IMG/VR virus record: IMGVR_UViG_3300045988_155882
DNA: 62,567 bases
Source: a virus
Direction: 5' to 3' (one strand)
The translations under genes were made by a program, and so were the position numbers. Of the stretch, positions 1 through 62,567 are shown piece after piece (position 1 is the first letter of the stretch; each line of letters opens with the position of its first letter). The notes below the pieces were generated by a model. That model made no database searches. It saw only the letters and a program-made list of their open reading frames with translations, and had not been told where the DNA came from.

Positions 1-55
1 CCGACTACCAAATTGCATCGGTAGCGGAAACCGCCATCATGGATGTATATCCGTA
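1..55. repeat. Terminal overlap identical to 62513-62567 (circular-contig signature)
   Basis: Exact 55/55 identity read directly from both ends. Confidence 0.95.
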
Positions 56-6026: not shown

Positions 6027-7652
6027 ATGGAAATGAAGAAAAGCGAATTGACACACGGCTCTCTGTTCAGCGGCATCGGTGGCCCGGAAATAGCTGCCGA
6101 GATAATGGGCTGGAAAAACGTGTTCCATTGTGAAATAAACCCGTTCGGGAGAAAAATACTTGATTATTGGTTTCCAAACAGCAAAAGTTATGAAAACATC
6201 ACGAAAACAGATTTTACAGAGTGGCGGGGAAAAATCAATGTCCTCACCGGAGGTTTCCCCTGCCAGCCCTTTTCTTGTGCCGGACAGCGAAAGGGAGCGG
6301 AAGATGACCGCTACCTCTGGCCGGAAATGCTACGAGCGATACGGGAGATTCAGCCCGATTGGGTTGTTGGTGAAAACGTTGCTGGAATCCTCTCGATGGT
6401 ACAACCCGGTAGTGAAACTGCGTTGGGACGTGAAGAATCTCTATTCGGAGAGGTTGACCGAAAAAGAATATTGCATCGGCAGGAATACGTCGTCGAAACA
6501 GTGTGTAACAACCTTGAACGTGAAGGATATTCCGTCCAACCGGTTGTTATTCCGGCTTGTGCCGTCGGAGCGCCGCACAGAAGAGACCGTGTCTTCTTTA
6601 TTGCAAGAAGAATACAAGACAATAACAACAACATCGGGAGTGGATATACTTGTAGATTCGGAAGATTTTCCGTTTTTGAATCAATGGAAATGGAAGATAA
6701 ACAATTCAGGGTATGTTTACAGAACAATCAGAGCGAAAGAAGATGGAAAGAAATGGAAGACTATCTTGATGCACAGATTGATTTGCTGTCCGAAGGAAAA
6801 CGAGGAAGTGGACCATATCAACAGATGCAAAACGGACAACAGAAAGCAAAATCTTCGGATATTAGCTCATTGGGAAAATCTTCACAATCGGAAGAAAGGT
6901 TCAGGAGTAAGGAAACCGAAGGGACGGAACAAATGGTATGCGATAATCTATGTGAACAGGAAAAGGATTCACCTCGGATTTTTCGATACAAAAGAGGATG
7001 CGATGAATGCAAGGTTGAATGCGGAGAGAAAATTGTTGCCCACCGTGCAGACGCAGGGGTTGAAGGTATGCAACGAAAATGGGAAGACAACATTCTATCC
7101 GGTAGAGCTGCTTCCGACACCGACAGCCATAGATGGAGGGACGGGAAGAATCAACAAGTCACTATCGCCGAACGCAAAGGAACGGCCAACATTGGCACTT
7201 TCCGCGAAGATGGGGCTGCTTCCGACACCCATGGCGAGCGACATACACCATGCAAAGCGGGTGAAGGACTTGAAAAATGCAGGTGCAAAAACGATGGCGA
7301 GTCGAAGAAACGGAAGCAATCGTCCGAATGGACTAATGGATTTTCACGGAATGTTACCTACACCAACGACAAGTTGCCACAATCCCGGAACGGCAAAGGA
7401 CCGGAAAGACGGCAGGCCCCGGACATCAGAACTGAATCATTTGTGTGTCCGCCTGATTGGGAAAACTTCCCTACTCAATCCCCTGTTTGTAGCCGAGATG
7501 ATGGGATTTCCACCAGATTGGACGGTATTGCCTTTTCAAAGTGGCGGCAGGAATCAATAAAGGCATACGGCAATGCGATTTTACCACAGGTTATATATGA
7601 AATTTTTAGAGCAATAAATATTGTAGAAAATGGAAGAATGGAAAACTATTGA
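6027..7652 (+). CDS. DNA cytosine-5 methyltransferase (frame A; middle third atypical)
   Basis: FSGIGG (motif I), GGFPCQPFS (IV), GENV (VI), HRRDRVFFIA (VIII) in the N-terminal part; YGNAILPQV (X) at the C-terminus; about 6610-7470 is low-complexity in this frame. Confidence 0.7.
   Translation: MEMKKSELTHGSLFSGIGGPEIAAEIMGWKNVFHCEINPFGRKILDYWFPNSKSYENITKTDFTEWRGKINVLTGGFPCQPFSCAGQRKGAEDDRYLWPEMLRAIREIQPDWVVGENVAGILSMVQPGSETALGREESLFGEVDRKRILHRQEYVVETVCNNLEREGYSVQPVVIPACAVGAPHRRDRVFFIARRIQDNNNNIGSGYTCRFGRFSVFESMEMEDKQFRVCLQNNQSERRWKEMEDYLDAQIDLLSEGKRGSGPYQQMQNGQQKAKSSDISSLGKSSQSEERFRSKETEGTEQMVCDNLCEQEKDSPRIFRYKRGCDECKVECGEKIVAHRADAGVEGMQRKWEDNILSGRAASDTDSHRWRDGKNQQVTIAERKGTANIGTFREDGAASDTHGERHTPCKAGEGLEKCRCKNDGESKKRKQSSEWTNGFSRNVTYTNDKLPQSRNGKGPERRQAPDIRTESFVCPPDWENFPTQSPVCSRDDGISTRLDGIAFSKWRQESIKAYGNAILPQVIYEIFRAINIVENGRMENY
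6640..7560 (+). CDS. Embedded +1-frame ORF: HNH-AP2 homing-endonuclease domain followed by MTase-like LLPTPT / GFPPDWT motifs (start uncertain; frame open from 6160)
   Basis: VDHINRCKTDNRKQNLRILAHWEN (HNH), KWYAIIYVNRKRIHLGFFDTKEDA (AP2-like), then LLPTPTAID, LLPTPMASD, MLPTPTTS, LNPLFVAEMMGFPPDWT. Confidence 0.55.
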   Translation: MDILVDSEDFPFLNQWKWKINNSGYVYRTIRAKEDGKKWKTILMHRLICCPKENEEVDHINRCKTDNRKQNLRILAHWENLHNRKKGSGVRKPKGRNKWYAIIYVNRKRIHLGFFDTKEDAMNARLNAERKLLPTVQTQGLKVCNENGKTTFYPVELLPTPTAIDGGTGRINKSLSPNAKERPTLALSAKMGLLPTPMASDIHHAKRVKDLKNAGAKTMASRRNGSNRPNGLMDFHGMLPTPTTSCHNPGTAKDRKDGRPRTSELNHLCVRLIGKTSLLNPLFVAEMMGFPPDWTVLPFQSGGRNQ

Positions 7653-8160
7653 AGGTTATGATGGAAGATATGAAGTCAGTAGTCATGGACGTATTAGAAG
7701 CGTCAGCATGTTTTTAGGGAATCATATATATCATGGAAAGGTTTTATCTCCCACAATGGCGACAAATGGATATTTAAAAGTTAATTTAATATTAAGAGGG
7801 AAAAAGAAGACTTGTTTGGTGCATAGGCTTGTCGCGAAAGCGTTTATAGAAAATAGAAAAAATCTACCACAAGTAAACCATAAAGATGAAATAAAAACCA
7901 ATAATAATGTTGACAATCTCGAATGGTGTAGCGAATCGTATAATTGTAACTACGGTAAAAGGAATTTTTTATTGATAGAGAAAACAAGGAAGCCTGTATT
8001 GCAATTATCGGTTGATGGGAGTTTGATAAACAGATTTGAAGTTTTAAATGACGCCTCCCGAATCACTGGGATAAATGCCGCACATATTTGTGATGTATGT
8101 AAAGGGAAAAGGAAATTAGCTGGTGGATATGTATGGAAATACGCCACAAGTAATGTATGA
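7630..8160 (+). CDS. HNH homing endonuclease (NUMOD4-like N-terminus, HNH, C-terminal DNA-binding module)
   Basis: WKTIEGYDGRYEVSSHGRIRS; VNHKDEIKTNNNVDNLEW; C-terminal NDASRITGINAAHICDVCKGKRKLAGGYVWKY. Confidence 0.75.
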   Translation: MEEWKTIEGYDGRYEVSSHGRIRSVSMFLGNHIYHGKVLSPTMATNGYLKVNLILRGKKKTCLVHRLVAKAFIENRKNLPQVNHKDEIKTNNNVDNLEWCSESYNCNYGKRNFLLIEKTRKPVLQLSVDGSLINRFEVLNDASRITGINAAHICDVCKGKRKLAGGYVWKYATSNV

Positions 8161-36495: not shown

Positions 36496-36593
36496 CAGTG
36501 CTAAACAATTATAAGAGTGGGCAACTCTTATGTAATCCGTAAGGGTTATTTTTATGCCCAATATAGGCATAGGTATATCGTATTTTAGATATA

Positions 36594-36673
36594 GCACACG
36601 AACGGTGGGGTAACGGAAACGTCCCCGAAATTAATCTTATGATTGTTTAGTAGCCGTGACCGTGTGCTTTTTT
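36594..36673 (+). terminator. Leader terminator/attenuator immediately upstream of the antirepressor start codon
   Basis: GCACACG (36594-36600) pairs with CGTGTGC (36661-36667), followed by T6; internal GGGG...GAAA...CCCC hairpin. Confidence 0.45.
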
Positions 36674-36678
36674 ATTTT

Positions 36679-37542
36679 ATGCTAAACAATCAGAAATCGG
36701 ATGCTTCTGTCATCCAAGTGTTCAATTCACCACAATTCGGTGAAATAAGAACAGCAGGAACGAGTGAAGAACCATTGTTCTGCCTTTCCGATGTATGTTC
36801 GGTATTAGGGCTTAGACAAGGTGATGTAAAACAAAGACTTGACGATGGGGTGGTTTCAACCCAACCCATAATAGACGCACTCGGAAGAGAACAACAAGCA
36901 AACTTTGTAAATGAGGACGGTTTGTATGATGTTATCCTTGATAGCAGAAAACCGCAAGCGAAAGCATTTCGTAAATGGGTAACTTCCGAAGTCCTCCCTG
37001 CAATCCGCAAGACAGGCGGCTACCTCGCCACCAAGCAGGACGACACTCCCGAAGAAATCATGGCACGTGCTCTAACCATCGCACAAGCCACCCTTGCCAA
37101 GAGAGAGGAACGGTTAAAGCAGCTTGAAGCCCAAACGGAGCAACAGCAAGCCACCATTAAACTGCAAGACAAGGAAATCAAGGAGGCTGCTCCGAAAGTC
37201 AGCTACTACGACAACCATCTGTTGAGCGTCAATGCCATGACAACCACTCAAATCTCAAAAGAGATAGGGATGTCGGCAGAAAAACTGAACAACAAACTGA
37301 AAGAACTTGGAATACAGTTCAAACAGTCGGGGCAGTGGCTCTTAAAATCACCATACGACAAATGGGGTATGCATGAAACGAGAACCAATATTTTCACAAG
37401 TGAAAGAGGTAATACCCATACCAACACATATACTGTATGGACGCAGAAAGGTAGACGCTTCATTATTGCTCTATATGAAAATGATTGGGACGTGAAGAAA
37501 GCCATTAAGCAGATAAAAGGAGAATTAGAACCCGCTGCGTAA
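36679..37542 (+). CDS. BRO-N / KilAC antirepressor
   Basis: VFNSPQFGEIRTAG...PLFCLSDVCSVLGL...DSRKPQAKAFRKWVTSEVLPAIRKTGGY (BRO-N-like); C-terminal KilAC-like region. Confidence 0.75.
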   Translation: MLNNQKSDASVIQVFNSPQFGEIRTAGTSEEPLFCLSDVCSVLGLRQGDVKQRLDDGVVSTQPIIDALGREQQANFVNEDGLYDVILDSRKPQAKAFRKWVTSEVLPAIRKTGGYLATKQDDTPEEIMARALTIAQATLAKREERLKQLEAQTEQQQATIKLQDKEIKEAAPKVSYYDNHLLSVNAMTTTQISKEIGMSAEKLNNKLKELGIQFKQSGQWLLKSPYDKWGMHETRTNIFTSERGNTHTNTYTVWTQKGRRFIIALYENDWDVKKAIKQIKGELEPAA

Positions 37543-47209: not shown

Positions 47210-48415
47210 TTACTTCTTAAAAACATTTACATAATCAATAACTTTCCGATTAGCTTTATCTACTTTTCGCATGTCAAAATGGATATAGATGTCAGTCGTT
47301 GTGCTGTTCGCCCAACTATGCCCAAGCGCGTGGGCGATTACCTCTTTGGGGACATCGAGTTCTGCCGCTACCGTGGCCCATGTGTGTCTTGCCCAATATG
47401 AGGACAAATCAGGGAATAAAGGATTTCTACTCTTTTTCCCTCCCAATCCCTTCCTTTCTGTCTCTCCAATCTGTTTTAACCCTATTCCCATACGATGTAG
47501 GAAATCCTTGTAATTTCCGTAGTCATCCATTATATTAAGAAGATAATCCTTCCCTTTGTATTTCTCAATTATAGCCTGCGCTTCCGGTTCTACTTTAATA
47601 CTGTATAATTTCCCCGTCTTAGCTCTTTTATATTCAAAACGACCATTTACCAATGCAGAATGTTTTGCGTTAAACAAATCGGCTGCATTTACTCCTATGA
47701 GATAGAACATGAGCATGAACATATCCCTATATCTAATCTGGTATTCCTCACATGGATAATCTCTCAATAACCTAAGTTGTTCTGCTGTAAGGCTGCGTTT
47801 TCGGGTTTCCTCTTTCTTTATTGAAAACCTTCTGAATGGATACAATGTTGTGTACTCCTCATCAATGGCGTAGTTGAATACACTACGTATGTTCCGTAAA
47901 TGAATAGCGTAGGCATTAACCTTCATCGTCTTTGCCATCCACGCTTCAAAGTTTTCCAGCCATGACTTATCCATGCTCTCAAAAGTACAATGACTATCGT
48001 ATTCCTCAATCTTGTTTCTTGTGGTTGTATATATAGACTTAGTTCCCTGATTGGTTTTCTTGGAAACGAATTCATCAAGATAATAGAGAAACGTCTTTTG
48101 GTTTTCAACCTTGCTACTTATAGCGTCCTCTATCAACTTCTTCAAAGCTTTGTCTGTAGTTGATTTCAACTTTTCTTGTTGCTCTAAAGTAAATATTACT
48201 GTTTCCGCCTTGTTTATTATTCCACGGGCAACTATATTCCTCGGCTTGTAATTTTGTGCACGCACAGAATATTCATTCCCATTCCATTCTTTTTCCGATG
48301 CACTTAGCTGCGTAGCTATCATTATTTGTTTGTTGTGGAATACATTCAACTTTATCGGATAAGTGCCATCTTTTTTTTGCCTTCTTTTATCAAGGTAGAA
48401 TTTAACCGTTGCCAT
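47210..48415 (-). CDS. int: tyrosine recombinase / phage integrase
   Basis: ARHTWATVAAELDVPKEVIAHALGHSWANSTTTDIYIHF catalytic-domain pattern; 401 aa. Confidence 0.85.
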   Translation of the reverse strand: MATVKFYLDKRRQKKDGTYPIKLNVFHNKQIMIATQLSASEKEWNGNEYSVRAQNYKPRNIVARGIINKAETVIFTLEQQEKLKSTTDKALKKLIEDAISSKVENQKTFLYYLDEFVSKKTNQGTKSIYTTTRNKIEEYDSHCTFESMDKSWLENFEAWMAKTMKVNAYAIHLRNIRSVFNYAIDEEYTTLYPFRRFSIKKEETRKRSLTAEQLRLLRDYPCEEYQIRYRDMFMLMFYLIGVNAADLFNAKHSALVNGRFEYKRAKTGKLYSIKVEPEAQAIIEKYKGKDYLLNIMDDYGNYKDFLHRMGIGLKQIGETERKGLGGKKSRNPLFPDLSSYWARHTWATVAAELDVPKEVIAHALGHSWANSTTTDIYIHFDMRKVDKANRKVIDYVNVFKK

Positions 48416-48468: not shown

Positions 48469-48575
48469 CAAAGATAAGATTAAAGGGGTTTAAAAGGGTC
48501 TAAAAGCGGAATGTTATTCAGCATACATAAAAAAATAAGCAGCTACTTTATTTGTAACTGCTTGATTTTCAAGAG

Positions 48576-48620
48576 AGCGGCAAGCGAGGCTCGAACTCGT
48601 GACCCTCAGCTTGGGAAGCT
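48576..48620 (-). other. attP core candidate: 3' portion of a tRNA (anticodon loop TTCCCAA, Gly-CCC-like) on the minus strand
   Basis: Minus strand ...TTCCCAA GCTGA GGGTC ACGAG TTCGAGC CTCGC TTGCCGC T; no matching 5' half; about 160 nt from int. Confidence 0.5.
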
Positions 48621-48941: not shown

Positions 48942-49406
48942 TTATTTTCTTCCATGGTTATATATATCACCGAATTTAGTCTCTATGAAAAATATATAGA
49001 AAAGCTTACCTCTTTGAAGTCCAACGAAAGACCTATTATCCCCTGAAGCACGAAACGCATGAAGGTCGACTTCCCTTGTTACAAAAGAAGGCAATTTATC
49101 TTTCGGCTTAATGTCATTGTACGGAATAGGCTCCATGCCATATGAATGTCTATGTGACAACCGTATTCCATCCCATCCAAGCTCACACAATTTTTGAAGT
49201 CTTAATATAAAGCTAAGAAGGAACGAATGGTCTTTACAGTCTTTTATAGACTCATCCGATAGGTATTTAAAAGAGAACAAGGGATGGTTTATTTCAGATA
49301 AATCACTTATTTCCCCTACGCTAATCTTATTGGAGTTTATAATACTCTGTATAAAAGAAAGCCCATCATCGTTTTCTTTTTTATTGTTTTTGCCCTTTCT
49401 TCTCAT
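48942..49406 (-). CDS. unknown protein, candidate toxin partner of the Panacea-domain gene (154 aa)
   Basis: ATGA-type overlap with upstream DUF4065 gene; no family recognised. Confidence 0.55.
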   Translation of the reverse strand: MRRKGKNNKKENDDGLSFIQSIINSNKISVGEISDLSEINHPLFSFKYLSDESIKDCKDHSFLLSFILRLQKLCELGWDGIRLSHRHSYGMEPIPYNDIKPKDKLPSFVTREVDLHAFRASGDNRSFVGLQRGKLFYIFFIETKFGDIYNHGRK

Positions 49407-49852
49407 TTCTTCAACCTGGTTTTAAAGAATGTCTTAATCTTAACCTTTGTTATCACATTCCCTTCTCCGGTTTTAGTGCTTTTCCACGGATGTTCGTTAT
49501 GGGTCATATTCATAAGCCCAAGTGCAGAATATACTCCATACACCTTAAATACTTCATTGAATAACGCTTCTTCTTTTTTGTTTTCAAATTCAAATTCAAA
49601 TTCAGAATCTAAATGAATGCCATTTTTACCGTTACTCTTATATTCATCATATACAGAAGGTACTACTGGACCGTACATCCATGCTTCGATTTCTTCATCA
49701 AACAATGGAGTCCCAAAATAGGCTAAATGAAAACCTTGCTGATAGTACAACATCTTTTGGAGCTTCATGTTTGTCATAAACTCTTCTCCGCAACTAACTT
49801 GTTCTGCTTTCTTTATAAGAACCTTTGCTATATCTGATGCCTTGTATGCCAT
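49403..49852 (-). CDS. DUF4065 / Panacea-domain (SocA/PanA-like) antitoxin
   Basis: MKLQKMLYYQQGFHLAYFGTPLFDEEIEAWMYGPVVPSVYDEYK pattern. Confidence 0.75.
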   Translation of the reverse strand: MAYKASDIAKVLIKKAEQVSCGEEFMTNMKLQKMLYYQQGFHLAYFGTPLFDEEIEAWMYGPVVPSVYDEYKSNGKNGIHLDSEFEFEFENKKEEALFNEVFKVYGVYSALGLMNMTHNEHPWKSTKTGEGNVITKVKIKTFFKTRLKK

Positions 49853-53274: not shown

Positions 53275-53586
53275 ATGAAGTACGATTTATCAGACATAAT
53301 GGAAAAGGCTCACAACTTCTACAAGACCGGAAAATACACCTGGTCTGAAAGCTTGAAAAAGTCATGGAAGATGGCAAAGTTTTCTGTCCGCGTAAAAGAG
53401 GAAATATCCAATATGGTAGACTATAAGTCTGCTGACGACAAAGCGTTCACTAATAGATTAAGAAAGGAGAATGAAGGCTATAAGCCGGCAAAAAGAAGCG
53501 CCTATGATAATTTCAATGCTCCGGCTTCCGTCTATTATACTTCTAACAACAGAGGGCGTTTTGGCTCTTGTTTCGTGGGTGATTAA
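53275..53586 (+). CDS. hypothetical protein (103 aa)
   Basis: ORF track. Confidence 0.55.
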   Translation: MKYDLSDIMEKAHNFYKTGKYTWSESLKKSWKMAKFSVRVKEEISNMVDYKSADDKAFTNRLRKENEGYKPAKRSAYDNFNAPASVYYTSNNRGRFGSCFVGD

Positions 53587-53604
53587 TACAATTAGCACAT
53601 AAAT

Positions 53605-53811
53605 ATGAATGACATCAAGACAATAGCAGTAAAGAAAATATCTCCATCCGACACATTAAAAAGTATAAAAGTCGGTGACACAGTAATTATAAAGGACAAG
53701 CATATAAAACCCAATGTAGCCCGATCTACCATGTCCAGACTATCTAAAAACGGATATAGCTTTTATTCGACAAGCTGCCCTGAAGGGTTGATAGTAAAAC
53801 GACTTAAATAA
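53605..53811 (+). CDS. hypothetical protein (68 aa)
   Basis: ORF track. Confidence 0.5.
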   Translation: MNDIKTIAVKKISPSDTLKSIKVGDTVIIKDKHIKPNVARSTMSRLSKNGYSFYSTSCPEGLIVKRLK

Positions 53812-53818
53812 TATCATT

Positions 53819-54052
53819 ATGAATATCAACAGAATATCAAAACAGACAGCCATGTTTGCAATAGGATTTATCGGCTTCTTATTCCTTCTCGGCATCGCAG
53901 GTAAATCAGATTATAATCAGGAAGTCATATACAACATGACGGAAACGGCTTACAATGTTATTGTAGATTCTCTCGGCGAAGGTTGTAGCGATACTCAAAT
54001 CGTAAAGACTTATTTAAATAACAAAGAATATTACGACAGTCTAAGTTGGTAG
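53819..54052 (+). CDS. small membrane protein (77 aa)
   Basis: ORF track; one TM segment. Confidence 0.5.
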   Translation: MNINRISKQTAMFAIGFIGFLFLLGIAGKSDYNQEVIYNMTETAYNVIVDSLGEGCSDTQIVKTYLNNKEYYDSLSW

Positions 54053-54055
54053 GTT

Positions 54056-54268
54056 ATGGGAAGAACGAAATCTGTAGGAAAGGTAGAGCCGGTCAACAAA
54101 CTATGGCTTTCCGCTAAGGAAGCAATGGCATACTTAGGATGCAGTGATAAACTGTTGGAAAAACTAAGGAACAATGCTGAAATATCATTTTCCCAATATA
54201 ACAAACGTACCATTTGGTACGACTTGAAAAGCATTGAAAGGTTTATAGAAAGAAACCGCGTTGTGTGA
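54056..54268 (+). CDS. excisionase-like helix-turn-helix protein
   Basis: WLSAKEAMAYLGCSDKLLEKLRNNAEISFSQYNKRTIWYDLKSIERFI pattern. Confidence 0.6.
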   Translation: MGRTKSVGKVEPVNKLWLSAKEAMAYLGCSDKLLEKLRNNAEISFSQYNKRTIWYDLKSIERFIERNRVV

Positions 54269-54278
54269 ACAACGCTCC

Positions 54279-54388
54279 TTCCTCTTAGCTCAGCCAGGCA
54301 GAGCATCGCTATGGTTACTTGTTCGAAGGTTTAGTATCCGGTAATTTCCGGTTAGCGAAGGTCGCACGTTCGAGTCGTGCAGAGGGAG
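54279..54388 (+). tRNA. tRNA-derived gene with a 43-nt insert in place of the 7-nt anticodon loop
   Basis: TTCCTCT/AGAGGGA acceptor, GCTC-AGCCAGGCA-GAGC D-arm, TCGCT/AGCGA anticodon stem, AGGTC variable loop, GCACG-TTCGAGT-CGTGC T-arm; the loop holds two hairpins (54317-54330, 54338-54351). Confidence 0.6.
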
Positions 54389-54399
54389 CAAAATACATA

Positions 54400-54770
54400 G
54401 TTCTTTGACGTATTGAATGTGAAATAAGGTTTAAGTATTTGATATTTAGACTTATTTCAATATAACCGAGGATTACGGATAGCGGAAACGCGGGGACTCC
54501 GTATAGGCTTGGTTATCGTGATTGTCTCTTCGCACCGAAATGTCCTACGGTAGAGAGTATGCGGTTTGGGCGCCCGTATCGCAGGAGACAAAGGTCATAA
54601 AGACAACATAAGCGTCCGATACAGTCTTAAATCGGTATAAAGTATGCGGTGGTAATGAAAGGCGCCCGTACACGCTTATTATATATACTCCCTTCCCGTC
54701 AAATTCGGGCACGCTGAAAGCTAAACACGTATTGTTGCGTTGAAGGGAGCCAATATTTATTAATCTTTAA
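54400..54770 (+). ncRNA. Candidate structured RNA / long leader (~370 nt)
   Basis: Perfect 8-9-bp helices (54608-15/54672-79; 54688-95/54742-49), GAAA loop, duplicated GTATGCGGT..GGCGCCCGTA motif; no ORF. Confidence 0.45.
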
Positions 54771-54782
54771 ATATATAGAATT

Positions 54783-55073
54783 ATGATTGGGAAAAAAGTA
54801 ATTATTAGAGCAGACAGAGCGGGCGTATTTTACGGAGTATTGAAAGAAAAAAATGGTAGTGAGGTTACATTGAAAGACTGCCGAAGATTGTGGTGTTGGT
54901 ATGGGGCTGCATCTATCAGCCAATTAGCTGTTGAGGGAACGAAAAGACCTAATGATTGTAAATTTACATTAGTTGTACCGATAATCTCTATTTTGGGGGT
55001 TATAGAAATAATTCCTTGTACAGATGAAGCGATAAAATCCATTGAGGAGGTAGACGTATGGAAGAACAGATAA
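54783..55073 (+). CDS. hypothetical protein (96 aa)
   Basis: ORF track. Confidence 0.6.
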   Translation: MIGKKVIIRADRAGVFYGVLKEKNGSEVTLKDCRRLWCWYGAASISQLAVEGTKRPNDCKFTLVVPIISILGVIEIIPCTDEAIKSIEEVDVWKNR

Positions 55074-55747
55074 AGCTATTTCTTAGCTCTGGCTCTGGCT
55101 ATGGCTCTGGCTATGGCTCTGGCTATGGCGATGGCTCTGGCTATGGCTCTGGCTATGGCTCTGGCTCTGGCTATGGCGATGGCTCTGGCTATGGCTCTGG
55201 CTATGGCGATGGCGATGGCTCTGGCTATGGCTATGGCGATGGCTCTGGCGATGGCTCTGGCGATGGCGATGGCTCTGGCTCTGGCTATGGCGATGGAATT
55301 AAAACATTCAATGGCGACAAAGCATATATCATTGATGATATTCCTACAATTATCAAGCATATTCATGACAATGTAGCTAAAGGATATATACTGAACGATG
55401 ACTTTACATTGACTAAAACATTTGTTGCAAAAGAGAATGGGAAATTCGCTCATGGAGAAACATTGCACGATGCGTTTGCTTCGCTTCAAGAAAAATTGTA
55501 TGACGATTCAACCGAGGAGGAAAGGATAGAAGCTTTTAAAAAGCATTTTCCAGACTTTACTAAAAAGGTATCGGCTAAAGAATTGTTCCATTGGCATCAT
55601 GTGCTGACCGGTTCGTGCAAGCAAGGAAGGCTGTCATTCTGTGCCAATAAGGGAATAGACATTGACAATGATACTTATACCGTACATGAGTTTATAGAAT
55701 TAACTCAATATTCTTATGGCGGTGATATAATCAGAAAATTGAAGTAA
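55058..55747 (+). CDS. protein with N-terminal (G/S)Y(G/S)/GD low-complexity repeat and globular C-terminal domain (229 aa)
   Basis: GSGYGSGYGSGYGDGSGYG... about 70 aa, then a non-repetitive 150 aa. Confidence 0.65.
   Translation: MEEQIKLFLSSGSGYGSGYGSGYGDGSGYGSGYGSGSGYGDGSGYGSGYGDGDGSGYGYGDGSGDGSGDGDGSGSGYGDGIKTFNGDKAYIIDDIPTIIKHIHDNVAKGYILNDDFTLTKTFVAKENGKFAHGETLHDAFASLQEKLYDDSTEEERIEAFKKHFPDFTKKVSAKELFHWHHVLTGSCKQGRLSFCANKGIDIDNDTYTVHEFIELTQYSYGGDIIRKLK
55086..55298. repeat. Tandem GGCTCTGGCTAT/GGCGAT repeats (coding)
   Basis: Direct reading; open in several frames and on both strands. Confidence 0.9.
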
Positions 55748-55865
55748 TATGTAATTATCCCGTGGCTCTCAATAGATGTTTGAGAGTAGTAAGGCAACCA
55801 TCGGAACGCCCACGGGAGTTAACTAAATTGTAACAGCAATGGATACGCTTTTCAACTATATTAAT

Positions 55866-56351
55866 CTATTCTTCGTTTTCTTTCTCGGGTTCGGATGCGG
55901 CATTATTTTTGTCTATTTGATGACGAAAATAATAGACAAAGCAATTCACGCATGCTCTGACAATCAAGAAGCCAAATGCAATAAATCCGTAAAAGAAGAT
56001 ATATGTAAGAAAGAAAATCCTTATCACATATCTATATCCAAGATTGTAATTAGCAGGAAAGAAGATAAGAAGGGAGGAGGCGATGACGGTACCCGAAAGT
56101 AGGAATAAGTATTGGGGTTTATATCGAATTCTTGCCGCTATATACGCAACGGCAACAAAAAGGTACGATATATACACGCAAATGATAGATGCAGTGGCTG
56201 AGAAAACAACCTGTTCATAAAACTCCAAGTTGGCAAACTCGGGTATGTACAGATACAAGACAGTAAATAAGACGGGGAACGATACCGCAAAAGCGGTAAA
56301 CAAAGACTTATGCTCCATATTGTAGCATTTGATTAATTCTGATAAATCCAT
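55866..56351 (-). CDS. multi-pass membrane protein (161 aa), opposite-strand moron
   Basis: Four or five hydrophobic segments; preferred over the overlapping 87-aa plus ORF. Confidence 0.55.
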   Translation of the reverse strand: MDLSELIKCYNMEHKSLFTAFAVSFPVLFTVLYLYIPEFANLEFYEQVVFSATASIICVYISYLFVAVAYIAARIRYKPQYLFLLSGTVIASSLLIFFPANYNLGYRYVIRIFFLTYIFFYGFIAFGFLIVRACVNCFVYYFRHQIDKNNAASEPEKENEE

Positions 56352-56515
56352 ATTTCTTAATTTTTAGTTTGGCGACACAAAATTAAGAAAATCCCCTGAT
56401 AATAACGTGATGTTGCCAATCGAATTGGTTCAGGGGAACAAAGCCTGTAAGGGTGAATAATTCATGATAGCTTTTTAATGTAGACAGTCCCGTCCACGTG
56501 CTGGTCGGGGAACAC

Positions 56516-56619
56516 TGCGACGTGGCGGAATGGTAGACGTAGCACTCTATGATAGGAATGTCAAACCTTAGATGTGCGGAGCTTGACAACTCGTCCCGGT
56601 TCGAGTCCGGGTGTCGCAA
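56516..56619 (+). tRNA. class-II-like (Leu-type D-arm, long variable arm) tRNA-derived gene with elongated anticodon arm
   Basis: TGCGACG/TGTCGCA acceptor, TG-GCGG-AATGGTAG-ACGT D-arm, CCCGG-TTCGAGT-CCGGG T-arm; GCAC/GTGC stem encloses 28 nt that extend the helix (TCTA/TAGA, AGG/CCT) to a 9-nt loop. Confidence 0.55.
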
Positions 56620-56713
56620 CATCTTCACTACAGATGAAGTATTTGTTTAGTTGTAGCCGGGCGGTCTGTGAAGATAGTCCGGTTTTTATTTGAAACCCAT
56701 TAATAACAATTAT

Positions 56714-57190
56714 ATGAAAACATTACAATTAAGTGAACAAAAAGCCCGTGAACTATATCGGAGCGGTTCAAAAGAACTAAAAACAGTATTGGAAGAATCC
56801 TTTGGAGAGGATTTCTTTTCACAAGACGTTACAGAAAGAGTGAAAACCTACCTTGATGCTTGTCACGAGTTGGGAAGGGAACCACTCGATGAGAAAAAGC
56901 TATTGGAGTTAGGCCTGACGGAACACGATATTGCTTATCAAAAGCTGGCTATCGTTACGGAAGCTCTAAATGGAGGTCAGAAACTTAATGTATGCGATGC
57001 TAACGTGGAACGTTGGTATCCGTGGTTCAAGCCTAATGGGTCTCCTTCCTCTTTCGCTTTCGACGGTTCGTATTGCGGTGATGCGTATGCGTTTGCGGGT
57101 AGCGGGTCTCGCCTTTGTTTGAAAAGCGAAAAGCTTTCCAATTATTGCGGGAAGCAATTCATTGATTTGTGGAAACAATTTATTCTATAA
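56714..57190 (+). CDS. DGR variable protein 1 (158 aa)
   Basis: C-terminal VR1; paralog of the next gene. Confidence 0.8.
   Translation: MKTLQLSEQKARELYRSGSKELKTVLEESFGEDFFSQDVTERVKTYLDACHELGREPLDEKKLLELGLTEHDIAYQKLAIVTEALNGGQKLNVCDANVERWYPWFKPNGSPSSFAFDGSYCGDAYAFAGSGSRLCLKSEKLSNYCGKQFIDLWKQFIL
57040..57119 (+). repeat. DGR variable repeat VR1
   Basis: 80 nt aligned to TR: 11 mismatches, 10 at TR adenines. Confidence 0.85.
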
Positions 57191-57208
57191 CCCTATAAAC
57201 TTACAATT

Positions 57209-57682
57209 ATGACTTTAAATGTAGATAAAAAGAGCGCTTTAAAGGCTTGGAGAGAAGCGGACAATAAAGGAAAGCAGATGCTTGAAAATCTATACGGCAA
57301 AGAAATATTTGCCAATCAAAACGTAATGGATAGAATCAAAACGTTTGAAGACGCAATGGAAGAAACAGGAAGAAAAGGTGTCCCTGATTTTTCAGATTTA
57401 CCCAAAGACATGCGCAGGCATTTCATTGCGTTATATAAAATGGAAGTTATTACGGAAGCTCTGAATGAAGGCTGGAAAGCAGACTGGGATAACTCGGATG
57501 AGAACAAGTATTATCCCTATTTCATTATGTCTCCTTCCTCTTTCGCTTTCCGCGATTCGTGTTACGATGATGCGTCTGCGGTTGCGGGTAGCGGGTCTCG
57601 CCTATGTTGTAAAACACGCGAACTTGCGGAATATTCGGCAAAACAATTTATTGACATTTGGAAAGACATCCAGATAGGATAA
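57209..57682 (+). CDS. DGR variable protein 2 (157 aa)
   Basis: C-terminal VR2. Confidence 0.8.
   Translation: MTLNVDKKSALKAWREADNKGKQMLENLYGKEIFANQNVMDRIKTFEDAMEETGRKGVPDFSDLPKDMRRHFIALYKMEVITEALNEGWKADWDNSDENKYYPYFIMSPSSFAFRDSCYDDASAVAGSGSRLCCKTRELAEYSAKQFIDIWKDIQIG
57528..57615 (+). repeat. DGR variable repeat VR2
   Basis: 88 nt aligned to TR: 9 mismatches, all at TR adenines. Confidence 0.9.
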
Positions 57683-57704
57683 GCATACAAAGGTCGTCTG
57701 CCCT

Positions 57705-57792
57705 TGTCTCCTTCCTCTTTCGCTTTCCACGATTCGAATTACGATAATGCGTATGCGAATGCAGGTAGCAGGTCTCGCCTATGTTGTAAAAC
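57705..57792 (+). repeat. DGR template repeat (TR)
   Basis: A-rich copy (…HDSNYDNAYANAGSRS… if translated); 95 nt upstream of RT. Confidence 0.9.
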
Positions 57793-57887
57793 TTCAAAGG
57801 GCAGAAACCTCACCTCTTGGTGGAAAACAACAATTCAAACGGTGTTGGTAGGTTTAACCCGAAAACTCTTATTAGAAAACAAAGGCT

Positions 57888-58874
57888 ATGAAACGCTTTG
57901 GGAATTTATATCATCGCATCTATGATATAGATAATCTTTATCTTGCTTATTCTAAAGCTAAAAAGGGCAAAGGAAAAACGTATGGAGTTATTCAGTTTGA
58001 GAAAGATTTGGATAACAACATACTTTCCTTGCACAAAGAATTGTCGGAAAGAAGCTATATCACTTCTCAATACACGACTTTCATTATACATGACCCAAAG
58101 GAGCGTGAGATATACAGGCTACCATTTCGTGACCGTGTTGTGCATCACGCTATAATGAACATCCTTGAAGATATATGGACACCGATTTTCATTTCACACA
58201 CTTATTCCTGTATCAAAGGAAAAGGCATTCATGGAGTGGTTAAACATTTGAAGAAAGACCTGAAAGATGCTGATGGAACAAAATATTGTCTGAAAATGGA
58301 TATTCGCAAATATTATCCGTCAATAGACCACTCCATACTGAAACGTATCATACGTAAGAAAATAAAAGACATAAAGGTGCTTGCCCTTCTGGATGGTATT
58401 ATAGATTCAGCACCGGGTGTTCCTATCGGTAACTATCTTTCCCAATTCTTTGCGAATCTATATCTTTCTTATTTCGACCATTGGATTAAGGAAGAAAAGC
58501 GAATGCCATATTATTACAGATATGCCGATGACATGGTGATACTTTCCAGCAGCAAGAAAGAGTTACACAGTATTCTTCTTGAAATCAACTCATATCTTAA
58601 TGAGAAACTGCACCTGCAATTAAAGGGCAACTATCAGTTTTTTCCGGTAGATAGCAGGGGAATAGATTTCGTGGGATACGTATTTTTTCATACGCATACA
58701 TTGATGCGGAAATCCATAAAGAAAAACTTTTGCCGTAAAGTATCTGCATTAAACAAAAAGAATATAACCCCGCATGATTACAAAATGGCAATCTGTTCAT
58801 GGCTGGGTTGGGCGAAGCATTGTAATTCTAAGCACCTTATTAAAAAGATTATTAAGAATGAAAAGATTCAGTGA
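57888..58874 (+). CDS. DGR-type reverse transcriptase
   Basis: VPIGNYLSQFFANLYL and YYRYADDMVIL motifs; 328 aa. Confidence 0.85.
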   Translation: MKRFGNLYHRIYDIDNLYLAYSKAKKGKGKTYGVIQFEKDLDNNILSLHKELSERSYITSQYTTFIIHDPKEREIYRLPFRDRVVHHAIMNILEDIWTPIFISHTYSCIKGKGIHGVVKHLKKDLKDADGTKYCLKMDIRKYYPSIDHSILKRIIRKKIKDIKVLALLDGIIDSAPGVPIGNYLSQFFANLYLSYFDHWIKEEKRMPYYYRYADDMVILSSSKKELHSILLEINSYLNEKLHLQLKGNYQFFPVDSRGIDFVGYVFFHTHTLMRKSIKKNFCRKVSALNKKNITPHDYKMAICSWLGWAKHCNSKHLIKKIIKNEKIQ

Positions 58875-59289: not shown

Positions 59290-59526
59290 ATGGAAAATGA
59301 ACTTGAAGAACTGTACAAGGAGCTGAACGAAGTCAAAACTTGTGATTTGGAATATCTTCCCAAATACGGCTATTCTTCAAAAGAAGAAATCATTCAGCTT
59401 ATAGAGGAAGACATTGAGGAGTTGCGCGCAGAACTTGAATGTAGTCAATATGATTATACACCTGACGAACTCGAAGACGAAAGGATGTTTCTTTGCGTTA
59501 GTCAAGGGATGCCAAGACATTGTTAA
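59290..59526 (+). CDS. highly acidic small protein (78 aa)
   Basis: ORF track; about one third D/E. Confidence 0.5.
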   Translation: MENELEELYKELNEVKTCDLEYLPKYGYSSKEEIIQLIEEDIEELRAELECSQYDYTPDELEDERMFLCVSQGMPRHC

Positions 59527-62142: not shown

Positions 62143-62567
62143 ATGCACACATGGTTTGAGTGTAAAATCCGTTATGAAAAAACAATGGAAAACGGAATGA
62201 ACAAAAAAGTTACCGAACCTTATCTGGTAGATGCACTCAGTTTTACGGAAGCAGAAGCACGTATCATCGAAGAGATGGCACCGTTTATTTCAGGAGAATT
62301 CACGGTATCGGACATCAAACGTGCCAACTATAGCGAACTGTTTCCATGCGAAGAGGAAGCCGCCGACCGTTGGTTCAAATGCAAGCTGGTTTTCATCACA
62401 TTGGACGAGAAAAGCGGTGCTGAGAAAAAAACGTCTACCCAGGTATTGGTGCAGGCAGCCGACTTGCGTGATGCGGTAAAGAATCTGGATGAAGGCATGA
62501 AAGGCACAATGGCCGACTACCAAATTGCATCGGTAGCGGAAACCGCCATCATGGATGTATATCCGTA
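62143..62567 (+). CDS. DUF4494-like protein, N-terminal part (continues at 56..236 after collapsing the overlap)
   Basis: ATG 62143 MHTWFECKIRYEKTMENGMNKKVTEPYLVDALSFTEAEARIIEEM...; no stop before the window end. Confidence 0.8.
   Translation, partial: MHTWFECKIRYEKTMENGMNKKVTEPYLVDALSFTEAEARIIEEMAPFISGEFTVSDIKRANYSELFPCEEEAADRWFKCKLVFITLDEKSGAEKKTSTQVLVQAADLRDAVKNLDEGMKGTMADYQIASVAETAIMDVYP
62513..62567. repeat. Terminal overlap identical to 1-55
   Basis: Exact identity. Confidence 0.95.

What the first reader, a model, noticed from the sequence alone, without database searches (positions are those of the whole stretch)
54279..54388. tRNA gene whose anticodon loop is replaced by a 43-nt two-hairpin insert
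Acceptor stem, D-arm, 5-bp anticodon stem (TCGCT/AGCGA), 5-nt variable loop and T-arm are all canonical. The anticodon stem, however, closes 43 nt (54311-54353) instead of 7. The insert folds into two hairpins (ACTT-GTTCGA-AGGT and CCGG-TAATTT-CCGG), so it forms a three-way junction. No combination of its first and last bases gives a standard loop (U33, purine 37). It is far too short for a group I intron, the known bacterial tRNA intron type. I could not draw a bulge-helix-bulge motif for it. It could be a novel intron, a decoy or modified tRNA that escapes anticodon nucleases, or a degenerate gene. A second phage tRNA (56516-56619) shows the same kind of expansion, which argues against random decay.
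Basis: seen in the sequence. Interest (0 to 1): 0.7.

Follow-up and report, generated by a model that had tools for sequence, protein, structure and literature searches.

The report
Phage tRNA-Arg-derived gene with conserved insert
A temperate human-gut phage carries a gene that folds like an arginine tRNA, but its anticodon loop holds a conserved 34-43-base insert, so it is either a tRNA-shaped small RNA that no longer decodes or a tRNA with an intron of a kind not known in bacteria.

Summary
Bases 54279-54388(+) form a complete cloverleaf whose 5-bp anticodon stem closes 43 nt instead of 7. Default ARAGORN and Rfam miss it.

It descends from tRNA-Arg(CCG). Its T arm and anticodon stem occur almost only in canonical tRNA-Arg genes, and the last seven loop bases are UUCCGGU. 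It is not decaying: about 100 related contigs are 99.7-100% identical across the element against 60-87% in the flanks. Three diverged types keep the insert blocks and show compensatory changes in the tRNA helices. No insert-free allele turned up in IMG/VR. More distant relatives hold an ordinary tRNA-Arg(CCT) in the same slot. It is not attP, which is a tRNA-Gly(CCC) fragment beside the integrase.

No bulge-helix-bulge, group I core, ribozyme or phage-encoded splicing enzyme was found. A20 is lost in every type. Types D and E have no anticodon-like loop.

Best reading (about 0.45): a non-decoding small RNA on a tRNA scaffold. Main rival (about 0.2): a new short tRNA intron at position 31/32. 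No RNA data were available, so function is untested.

The parts
54279..54388 (+). Element #1: tRNA-Arg(CCG)-derived, tRNA-shaped gene (110 nt up to discriminator G)
   Evidence: Sequence; fold; ARAGORN -i tRNA-Arg(ccg); covariance model R1 128.6 bits; 99.7-100% conserved against 60-87% in flanks
54311..54353 (+). 43-nt insert closed by the anticodon stem UCGCU/AGCGA (54306-54310 / 54354-54358)
   Evidence: Blocks GGUUAYUUGUUCG, GUUUAG and 2x UCCGGU are conserved in types A, B and C
54317..54330 (+). Putative hairpin 1 (ACUU-GUUCGA-AGGU)
   Evidence: In the minimum-energy fold but not the centroid. Across types only one-sided changes such as C-G to U-G and U-A to U-G; no compensatory pair
54338..54351 (+). 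Putative hairpin 2 (CCGG-UAAUUU-CCGG): a codon-like CGG pairs with the ancestral CCG anticodon plus G37
   Evidence: In both the minimum-energy and centroid folds. CCGG/CCGG never varies in types A-C while the loop between varies in length and sequence
54346..54352 (+). UUCCGGU: ancestral anticodon-loop heptamer (U33, CCG, G37). A first copy, AUCCGGU, lies at 54336-54342
   Evidence: ARAGORN -i model. 120 of 120 uninterrupted tRNAs with the same anticodon stem, variable loop and T arm carry anticodon CCG
54258..54275 (+). Hairpin GCGTTG-TGTGAA-CAACGC spanning the stop codon of the upstream Xis-like HTH gene (54056-54268), 3 nt before element #1
   Evidence: conserved together with the element. 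A role as a protective 3' end of the mRNA is inferred
56516..56619 (+). Element #2: Leu-type (long variable arm) tRNA-like gene with a 26-nt anticodon loop, followed by a hairpin and U-run
   Evidence: The acceptor, D and T frame is constant while the middle differs between relatives: 105, 107, 135 and 189 nt. Related Leu-type elements with other acceptor stems are 130, 145 and 157 nt. Compensatory changes in the anticodon stem in L274

Best explanation
Element #1 is a gene derived from tRNA-Arg(CCG) that now encodes a tRNA-shaped small RNA and not a decoder.

Inferred: it is transcribed with or just after the early Xis-like operon. RNase P and the tRNA 3'-end machinery cut it out, because its acceptor stem, D arm, T arm and elbow are intact.

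Shown: those parts are kept by tRNA-type selection. The anticodon loop is replaced by a conserved 34-43-nt module in which a codon-like CGG can pair with the ancestral CCG anticodon.

Inferred: with the anticodon masked and the ArgRS identity base A20 lost, the RNA does not enter translation. The tRNA body acts as a stabilising, self-processing scaffold. The conserved module is the working part, binding a protein that recognises tRNA-Arg or an RNA target. The target is unknown. Element #2 is the same design on a Leu-type frame, with a fast-changing middle.
For: - The frame is tRNA-like and under selection. Pair 2-71 is U-G, U-A or C-G in types A, B and C; pair 31-39 is U-A or C-G; the Levitt pair 15-48 is G-C or A-U.
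- The element is 99.7-100% identical across 85 contigs against 60-87% in the flanks. Sequences in about 100 contigs stay the same up to about two bases past the discriminator G and then differ.
- The insert has conserved sequence blocks across types A, B and C. A passive intron would not be expected to keep them.
- A20 is present in 207 of 211 canonical tRNAs sharing this T arm. It is C or U in every type of the family.
- Type D (L281) and type E (L002 6384-6497) keep the frame and part of the insert but have no anticodon-like loop.
- Element #2 relatives carry unrelated-looking middles, some with 'anticodons' that do not fit a Leu frame, such as GAA.
- No splicing endonuclease or RNA ligase was found among about 50 phage proteins. 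No ribozyme or group I match.
- RNAs placed in the anticodon arm of a tRNA frame are processed and accumulate stably in E. coli (PMC3753655). RNase P also processes phage non-tRNA substrates such as C4 antisense RNA (PMC11143913).
Against: - There are no expression, processing or binding data, and the target is unknown.
- The ancestral anticodon heptamer with U33 and G37 is kept right next to the 3' strand in types A, B and C. In type C, precise removal of 42 nt would give a perfect anticodon arm.
- The matching slot in distant relatives holds a working tRNA-Arg. That suggests a decoding function is useful at this locus.
- In element #2 and its L001 relative, the 3'-proximal heptamers read Leu anticodons (UAG, UAA) that fit the Leu frame.
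- No antisense target of 10 nt or more exists in the phage itself.
Confidence: 0.45

Rival explanations
1. It is a working tRNA-Arg(CCG) gene, and element #2 a tRNA-Leu gene, interrupted by a new kind of short intron at the 5' edge of the anticodon loop (position 31/32 or 32/33). An unknown host pathway, for example an endonuclease plus RtcB-type ligation, would remove it. The intron pairs with the anticodon, as eukaryal and archaeal tRNA introns do.
For: ARAGORN -i places the insert at the same position in #1, #2 and the L001 variant, and each time leaves a heptamer with U33 and a purine at 37 whose anticodon fits the frame: Arg CCG, Leu UAG, Leu UAA. The frame is of tRNA-Arg(CCG) type. Type C would splice to the canonical UCGCC-UUCCGGU-GGUGA. 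The insert pairs with the anticodon in #1 and #2. A canonical tRNA-Arg occupies the same slot in relatives. There is no insert-free allele, so the insert is tolerated.
Against: No bulge-helix-bulge, no group I core and no ribozyme (inspection). No shared splice-site motif between #1 and #2. No phage splicing enzymes. No such pathway is known in bacteria (own knowledge). Types A and B, the commonest, would give a 6-bp anticodon stem or an 8-nt loop. A20 is lost. Types D and E and several #2 relatives lack a fitting anticodon. The covariation-supported register of the #2 anticodon stem conflicts with the UAG loop model.
Confidence: 0.2
2. It acts in cis as a processing signal only. The tRNA shape recruits RNase P or RNase Z to separate the upstream Xis-like mRNA from the downstream structured leader, and the released RNA has no function.
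For: The element starts 10 nt after the stop codon, just past a hairpin that could protect the mRNA 3' end. A structured, conserved 390-nt leader follows it. In L002 a different small RNA (DUF2693-FD) occupies the same place before a homologous leader.
Against: A processing signal needs only the acceptor, T and D parts. That does not explain near-total conservation of the 43-nt insert, or blocks shared between types A, B and C. Element #2 looks like a separate gene followed by a hairpin and a U-run.
Confidence: 0.1
3. It is a decaying tRNA pseudogene or an assembly artefact.
For: Standard tRNA finders reject it. A20 is lost.
Against: The sequence is the same in about 100 independent assemblies, and far better conserved than neighbouring genes. 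There are compensatory changes in the stems and the Levitt pair. Three diverged types keep the insert.
Confidence: 0.03
4. It is a DNA-level site, either the phage attP or a protein-binding site made of two TTCCGGT repeats, and not an RNA.
For: Phage attP sites often carry tRNA 3' halves that start at the anticodon loop (own knowledge). The TTCCGGT repeats are 10 bp apart in types A and B. The element lies next to an Xis-like HTH gene.
Against: attP is elsewhere. Prophage copies sit at a host tRNA-Gly(CCC) next to the integrase, and the window holds the matching 46-nt tRNA-Gly fragment at about 48575-48620(-). The 5' half, the compensatory pairs and the tertiary covariation make sense only for an RNA. 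The repeat spacing is 14 bp in type C.
Confidence: 0.04

Closest known systems
Canonical bacterial tRNA-Arg(CCG)
   Same: Same variable loop (AGGUC) and T arm (GCACG-UUCGA). The anticodon stem UCGCC/GGYGA matches in type C, while this window has the variant UCGCU/AGCGA. The anticodon CCG is retained, as are U8-A14, G18G19, the Levitt pair and the T-loop.
   Different: 34-43 extra nt between positions 31 and 32. A20 is replaced by C or U. U1-A72 with a weak second pair. Not detected by the Rfam tRNA model or by default ARAGORN.
Engineered 'tRNA scaffold' RNAs (Ponchon and Dardel; PMC3753655)
   Same: Acceptor, T and D arms are kept. The anticodon stem-loop is turned into an insertion region closed by a stem. 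In E. coli such RNAs are processed and protected like tRNAs.
   Different: That is a laboratory design. Here the same layout is natural, phage-encoded and conserved, and the insert still contains the old anticodon.
Archaeal and eukaryal tRNA introns (bulge-helix-bulge, mostly at 37/38)
   Same: A short intervening sequence in the anticodon loop that pairs with the anticodon.
   Different: No bulge-helix-bulge can be drawn. The position is 31/32. The inferred host is a bacterium, which lacks the splicing endonuclease (own knowledge). The insert sequence is itself conserved.
Group I introns in bacterial tRNA anticodon loops (tRNA-Leu UAA, tRNA-fMet, tRNA-Arg CCU, tRNA-Ile)
   Same: They interrupt bacterial tRNA anticodon loops, including an Arg and a Leu tRNA (own knowledge).
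   Different: Those are about 200 nt or longer with a P1-P9 catalytic core. Here the insert is 19-43 nt with no Rfam intron match.
Phage and bacterial tRNA-like stable RNAs: T4 stable RNA species 1 and 2 (own knowledge), P1 C4 antisense RNA (an RNase P substrate, PMC11143913), YrlA, the tmRNA tRNA-like domain
   Same: Non-decoding RNAs that use tRNA-like parts for processing by RNase P and for stability. Some are phage-encoded.
   Different: No sequence or Rfam relationship. YrlA is circularly permuted relative to a tRNA. tmRNA lacks a D stem. None is a full cloverleaf with an insert in the anticodon loop.

Membership tests
Canonical tRNA | Cloverleaf with 7-bp acceptor stem, D arm, 5-bp anticodon stem and T arm, plus conserved tertiary bases (U8-A14, G18G19, 15-48, G53-C61) | tested here: met
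   Covariation in the acceptor, anticodon and T stems. Pair 15-48 is G-C or A-U.
Canonical tRNA | 7-nt anticodon loop; detection by the Rfam tRNA model or default ARAGORN | tested here: not met
   43-nt loop. ARAGORN default finds 0 genes. No Rfam tRNA hit at E<=10.
tRNA-Arg (arginine acceptor) | A20 in the D loop and C35 in an accessible anticodon loop (ArgRS identity elements, own knowledge) | tested here: not met
   A20 is present in 207 of 211 canonical tRNAs with this T arm. It is C20 or U20 in types A-E. C35 is present but predicted to be paired.
Group I intron in a tRNA | About 200 nt or more with a conserved P1-P9 core | tested here: not met
   Insert is 34-43 nt. No Intron_gpI hit.
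Bulge-helix-bulge tRNA intron | Two 3-nt bulges on opposite strands separated by a 4-bp helix, with the splice sites in the bulges | tested here: not met
   Inspection of the folds. In #2 both bulges lie on the same strand. In #1 the region is a three-way junction.
Bulge-helix-bulge tRNA intron | Host or virus encodes an EndA-type splicing endonuclease and an RNA ligase | tested here: inconclusive
   None among about 50 phage proteins. The host genome could not be searched.
Small self-cleaving ribozymes (hammerhead, twister, pistol, hatchet, HDV-like) | Match to the family's conserved core | tested here: not met
   No Rfam match in 53500-58500 at E<=10, or in relatives at E<=1. The junction strands lack CUGAUGA and GAAA.
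tRNA-scaffolded or tRNA-like small RNA | Intact acceptor, T and D parts, with a foreign structured module closed by the anticodon stem | tested here: met
tRNA-scaffolded or tRNA-like small RNA | Accumulates as a stable, RNase P-processed RNA that is not used in translation | not testable with these tools
   Needs a northern blot, small-RNA-seq and a charging assay.
Phage attP overlapping a tRNA | Sequence identical to the host attB tRNA, at the prophage junction | tested here: not met
   The junction is at host tRNA-Gly(CCC) beside the integrase. attP lies at about 48575-48620(-).
tmRNA / YrlA | Tag-encoding reading frame with pseudoknots (tmRNA), or a Ro-binding stem formed by the 5' and 3' ends (YrlA) | tested here: not met
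   ARAGORN finds no tmRNA. No Rfam hit. The topology differs.

The most novel reading that the evidence does not exclude
These are working tRNA genes (Arg-CCG and Leu) interrupted by a previously unknown class of short introns. The introns are neither group I nor bulge-helix-bulge, lie at position 31/32, and pair with the anticodon. A bacterial (Bacteroidota) or phage-triggered cleavage-ligation pathway would remove them. That would mean protein-dependent tRNA splicing exists in bacteria and that phages use it, perhaps to gate tRNA supply.
Probability: 0.2. Interest if true: 0.9.

Novelty: new variant of a known kind. Interest (0 to 1): 0.62.

Why it matters
tRNA genes in phages are usually read as codon-supply or anti-nuclease devices. 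Here an abundant group of human-gut temperate phages carries no ordinary tRNA. It carries two conserved tRNA-shaped genes whose anticodon loops hold conserved extra modules. The integrase alone is listed in 1054 blocks of the assembly collection.

If they are non-decoding, they are a natural version of the laboratory tRNA scaffold. That would be a way to make stable small RNAs in Bacteroidota, which lack Hfq and ProQ (own knowledge). If they are spliced, bacteria have a tRNA splicing route nobody has described.

Either way, standard annotation misses them: ARAGORN default and the Rfam tRNA model both fail. Similar genes are probably overlooked in viromes.

Tried and rejected
- attP hypothesis: rejected. 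attP is a tRNA-Gly(CCC) fragment next to the integrase.
- Link to the DGR downstream of element #2: rejected. In most relatives #2 is followed directly by the homologue of gene 59290-59526 with no DGR.
- Mobile insert shared between different tRNAs: a scan for the insert motif found it only in this Arg frame. The other hits are chance matches in coding DNA.
- Insert-free alleles: none in IMG/VR for either frame. The single hit is a chance match in GC-rich coding DNA.
- Antisense target in the phage: no complementarity of 10 nt or more outside the element itself. A duplex-energy scan timed out.
- Known RNA families: nothing in Rfam for the inserts or for the variant middles of #2.
- Splicing or repair enzymes: none in PHROGs, Pfam or PADLOC scans of about 50 proteins.
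It did not find the host, but it showed the arm is typical of tRNA-Arg.
- Consensus structure inside the insert: RNAalifold was weak and affected by a 1-nt misalignment of type C. The covariance-model realignment did not fix hairpin 2.
- Literature searches found no description of such genes.

Full report
WHAT IS THERE

Bases 54279-54388(+) read as a full cloverleaf:
- acceptor stem UUCCUCU/AGAGGGA, then U8-A9
- D arm GCUC-AGCCAGGCA-GAGC, then A26
- anticodon stem UCGCU/AGCGA
- variable loop AGGUC
- T arm GCACG-UUCGAGU-CGUGC
- discriminator G

The anticodon stem closes 43 nt (54311-54353). RNAfold returns this cloverleaf with two small hairpins inside the loop. The centroid keeps only the CCGG/CCGG hairpin, and the total energy is not unusual (z = -1.6).

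Default ARAGORN finds no tRNA in the whole window. Rfam finds no tRNA even at E<=10. It calls 56516-56620 a long-variable-arm tRNA with a 19-nt intron. In 870 kb of unrelated bacterial DNA the same setting made 12 intron calls: one of 3 nt and eleven of 205-1501 nt. Short-insert calls in the 19-43-nt range are therefore not its usual noise.

CONTEXT

The window is a complete circular phage genome with a 55-nt terminal overlap. It encodes terminase, portal, capsid and tape-measure proteins, and an integrase with Arm-DNA-bind_5 and Phage_int_SAM_5 domains. The host is inferred, not shown, to be a gut Bacteroidota. The grounds are those integrase domains, Rfam motifs c4-2, RT-17 and DUF2693-FD, the absence of Shine-Dalgarno sequences by eye, and a human-gut source.

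Prophage copies lie next to a host cobalamin operon at a tRNA-Gly(CCC) gene. The phage carries the matching 3' 46 nt of that tRNA at about 48575-48620(-) beside the integrase. So the two odd elements are not attP.

Element #1 starts 10 nt after the stop codon of an Xis-like HTH gene (54056-54268), just past a hairpin that spans the stop codon. The DGR that follows element #2 in this window is absent from most relatives and is unrelated.

ANCESTRY

The 21-nt variable-loop and T-arm string of #1 occurs in 120 sampled bacterial genome loci. ARAGORN of 95 of those genes tRNA-Arg. A stricter pattern, combining the anticodon stem UCGYY/RRYGA, AGGUC and the T arm around a 6-10-nt loop, hit 120 metagenome loci. 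All of them are tRNA-Arg with loop CUCCGAA, that is anticodon CCG.

In #1 the last seven loop bases before a sixth A-U pair are UUCCGGU (U33, CCG, G37). So #1 descends from a tRNA-Arg(CCG) gene that gained extra sequence between positions 31 and 32.

In more distant phages (Xis-like protein 62% identical) the same slot holds an ordinary, uninterrupted tRNA-Arg(CCT).

CONSERVATION

An exact 26-mer of the T arm hit 99 IMG/VR contigs. The part not selected on, the 5' half plus the insert, is almost invariant. The sequences stay the same up to about two bases past the discriminator and then differ. In 85 contigs aligned over +/-700 nt, identity to the window is 99.7-100% inside the element and 60-87% in the flanking genes.

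Retrieval anchored on the Xis-like protein removes the selection bias and yields diverged types:
- Type A: this window, 111 nt
- Type B: 114 nt
- Type C: 117-118 nt
- Type D: 96 nt

The covariance model found a fifth form, type E, at L002 6384-6497.

Types A, B and C share the insert blocks GGUUAYUUGUUCG, GUUUAG and two copies of (U)UCCGGU. Loops and linkers vary by indels.

The tRNA helices covary:
- Pair 2-71 is U-G, U-A or C-G
- Pair 31-39 is U-A or C-G
- Pair 29-41 is G-C or G-U
- The tertiary 15-48 pair is G-C or A-U

Hairpin 1 shows only one-sided changes. Hairpin 2 (CCGG/CCGG) never varies. RNAalifold proposes a weak alternative. The internal fold of the insert is therefore plausible, not proven.

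The insert motif was found in no other tRNA frame. No insert-free allele of either frame exists in IMG/VR.

THE SECOND ELEMENT

56516-56619 has a Leu-type frame: long variable arm, D loop GGAAUGGUAGA, discriminator A. Its anticodon loop is 26 nt, and a hairpin plus U-run follows it. Relatives keep the acceptor, D and T frame almost unchanged but carry different middles of 105, 107, 135 and 189 nt. Related Leu-type elements with other acceptor stems are 130, 145 and 157 nt long. In L274 the anticodon stem changes G-C to A-U and C-G to U-A, and repairs a U-U mismatch.

In #2 the insert pairs UCUA with UAGA, which is a Leu codon CUA against anticodon UAG. This mirrors the CGG-CCG pairing in #1.

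INTRON OR MIMIC?

For an intron:
- The insert lies at the same place (31/32 or 32/33) in #1, #2 and the L001 variant.
- What remains is a heptamer with U33 and a purine at 37 whose anticodon fits the frame: Arg CCG, Leu UAG, Leu UAA.
- Type C would splice to a perfect arm.

Against an intron:
- No bulge-helix-bulge, group I core or ribozyme (inspection).
- No shared splice-site motif between #1 and #2.
- No endonuclease or ligase among about 50 phage proteins.
- Types A and B would give a 6-bp stem or an 8-nt loop.
- The insert sequence is itself conserved.
- A20 is a main ArgRS identity base (own knowledge). It is present in 207 of 211 canonical relatives but is C or U in every type.
- Types D and E have no anticodon-like loop at all.
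- Several #2 relatives carry 'anticodons' that do not fit a Leu frame, for example GAA.

I therefore prefer a non-decoding, tRNA-scaffolded small RNA (0.45) over a new intron (0.2). Experiments in E. coli show that RNAs placed in the anticodon arm of a tRNA frame are processed and protected like tRNAs (PMC3753655). RNase P is known to process phage non-tRNA RNAs such as C4 (PMC11143913). Both make the proposed biogenesis credible. The function of the module, whether protein decoy or base-pairing, is inferred and untested.

NOVELTY

I found no description of such genes in the paper library, in Rfam, or in annotated phage records. Only two unannotated records match the region, and neither covers #1. 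I rate it a new variant of a known kind: tRNA-derived or tRNA-like RNAs. There is a real chance that it is something more unusual.

Noticed in passing
window 56690-58874: Complete DGR cassette. Two target ORFs (56690-57190, 57209-57682) have variable-repeat-like 3' ends. A template repeat lies at about 57700-57795. Rfam RT-17 RNA is at 57806-57882 (41.5 bits, just above its 40.4 gathering score), followed by a reverse transcriptase at 57888-58874 (phrog_1423, E = 4e-132). The cassette is absent from most related contigs, so it is a recent insertion after element #2.
   Followed up: partly
window 36593-36670 and 36679-37542: Rfam c4-2 RNA (52.8 bits) lies directly upstream of a Bro-N/ANT antirepressor gene. 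This looks like a P1-type c4/ant immunity module in a phage of a likely Bacteroidota host.
   Followed up: no
window 54389-54782: About 390 nt of non-coding, structured sequence (z = -2.6) lies between element #1 and the DUF6948 gene. It contains a c4-like hairpin, ACGGAUAGCGGAAACGC. A homologous leader follows a DUF2693-FD RNA (58.8 bits, L002 3767-3815) in a related phage that lacks element #1 at this slot.
   Followed up: partly
window 48575-48620 (-): attP core: the 3' 46 nt of a host tRNA-Gly(CCC), next to the integrase gene 47210-48415(-). Prophage copies are inserted at that tRNA beside a cobalamin (CobU/CobT/CobS) operon.
   Followed up: yes
window 1-55 and 62513-62567: The first 55 bases repeat at the end of the window. 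This is an assembly overlap, so the window is a complete circular genome of 62,512 bp.
   Followed up: yes
window 48942-49852 (-): A SocA/Panacea-domain antitoxin (49403-49852, E = 4e-22) is paired with a 154-aa ORF with no family match (48942-49406). This is a possible PanA-PanT toxin-antitoxin pair. Whether the toxin targets tRNA was not examined.
   Followed up: no
window 6027-8160: A 541-aa DNA methyltransferase gene is followed, with overlap, by a NUMOD4/HNH_3 homing-endonuclease-like ORF (7630-8160).
   Followed up: no
L002 6384-6497; L310 and L314 (coordinates not recorded); L002 9108-9264: Related phages carry further tRNA-shaped genes with oversized anticodon regions. Type E has a 7-bp stem, GUGCAUG/CAUGCAC, closing 43 nt. 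There are also Leu-type frames of 145, 130 and 157 nt with different acceptor stems. The phenomenon is a family trait of this phage group and not a one-off.
   Followed up: partly
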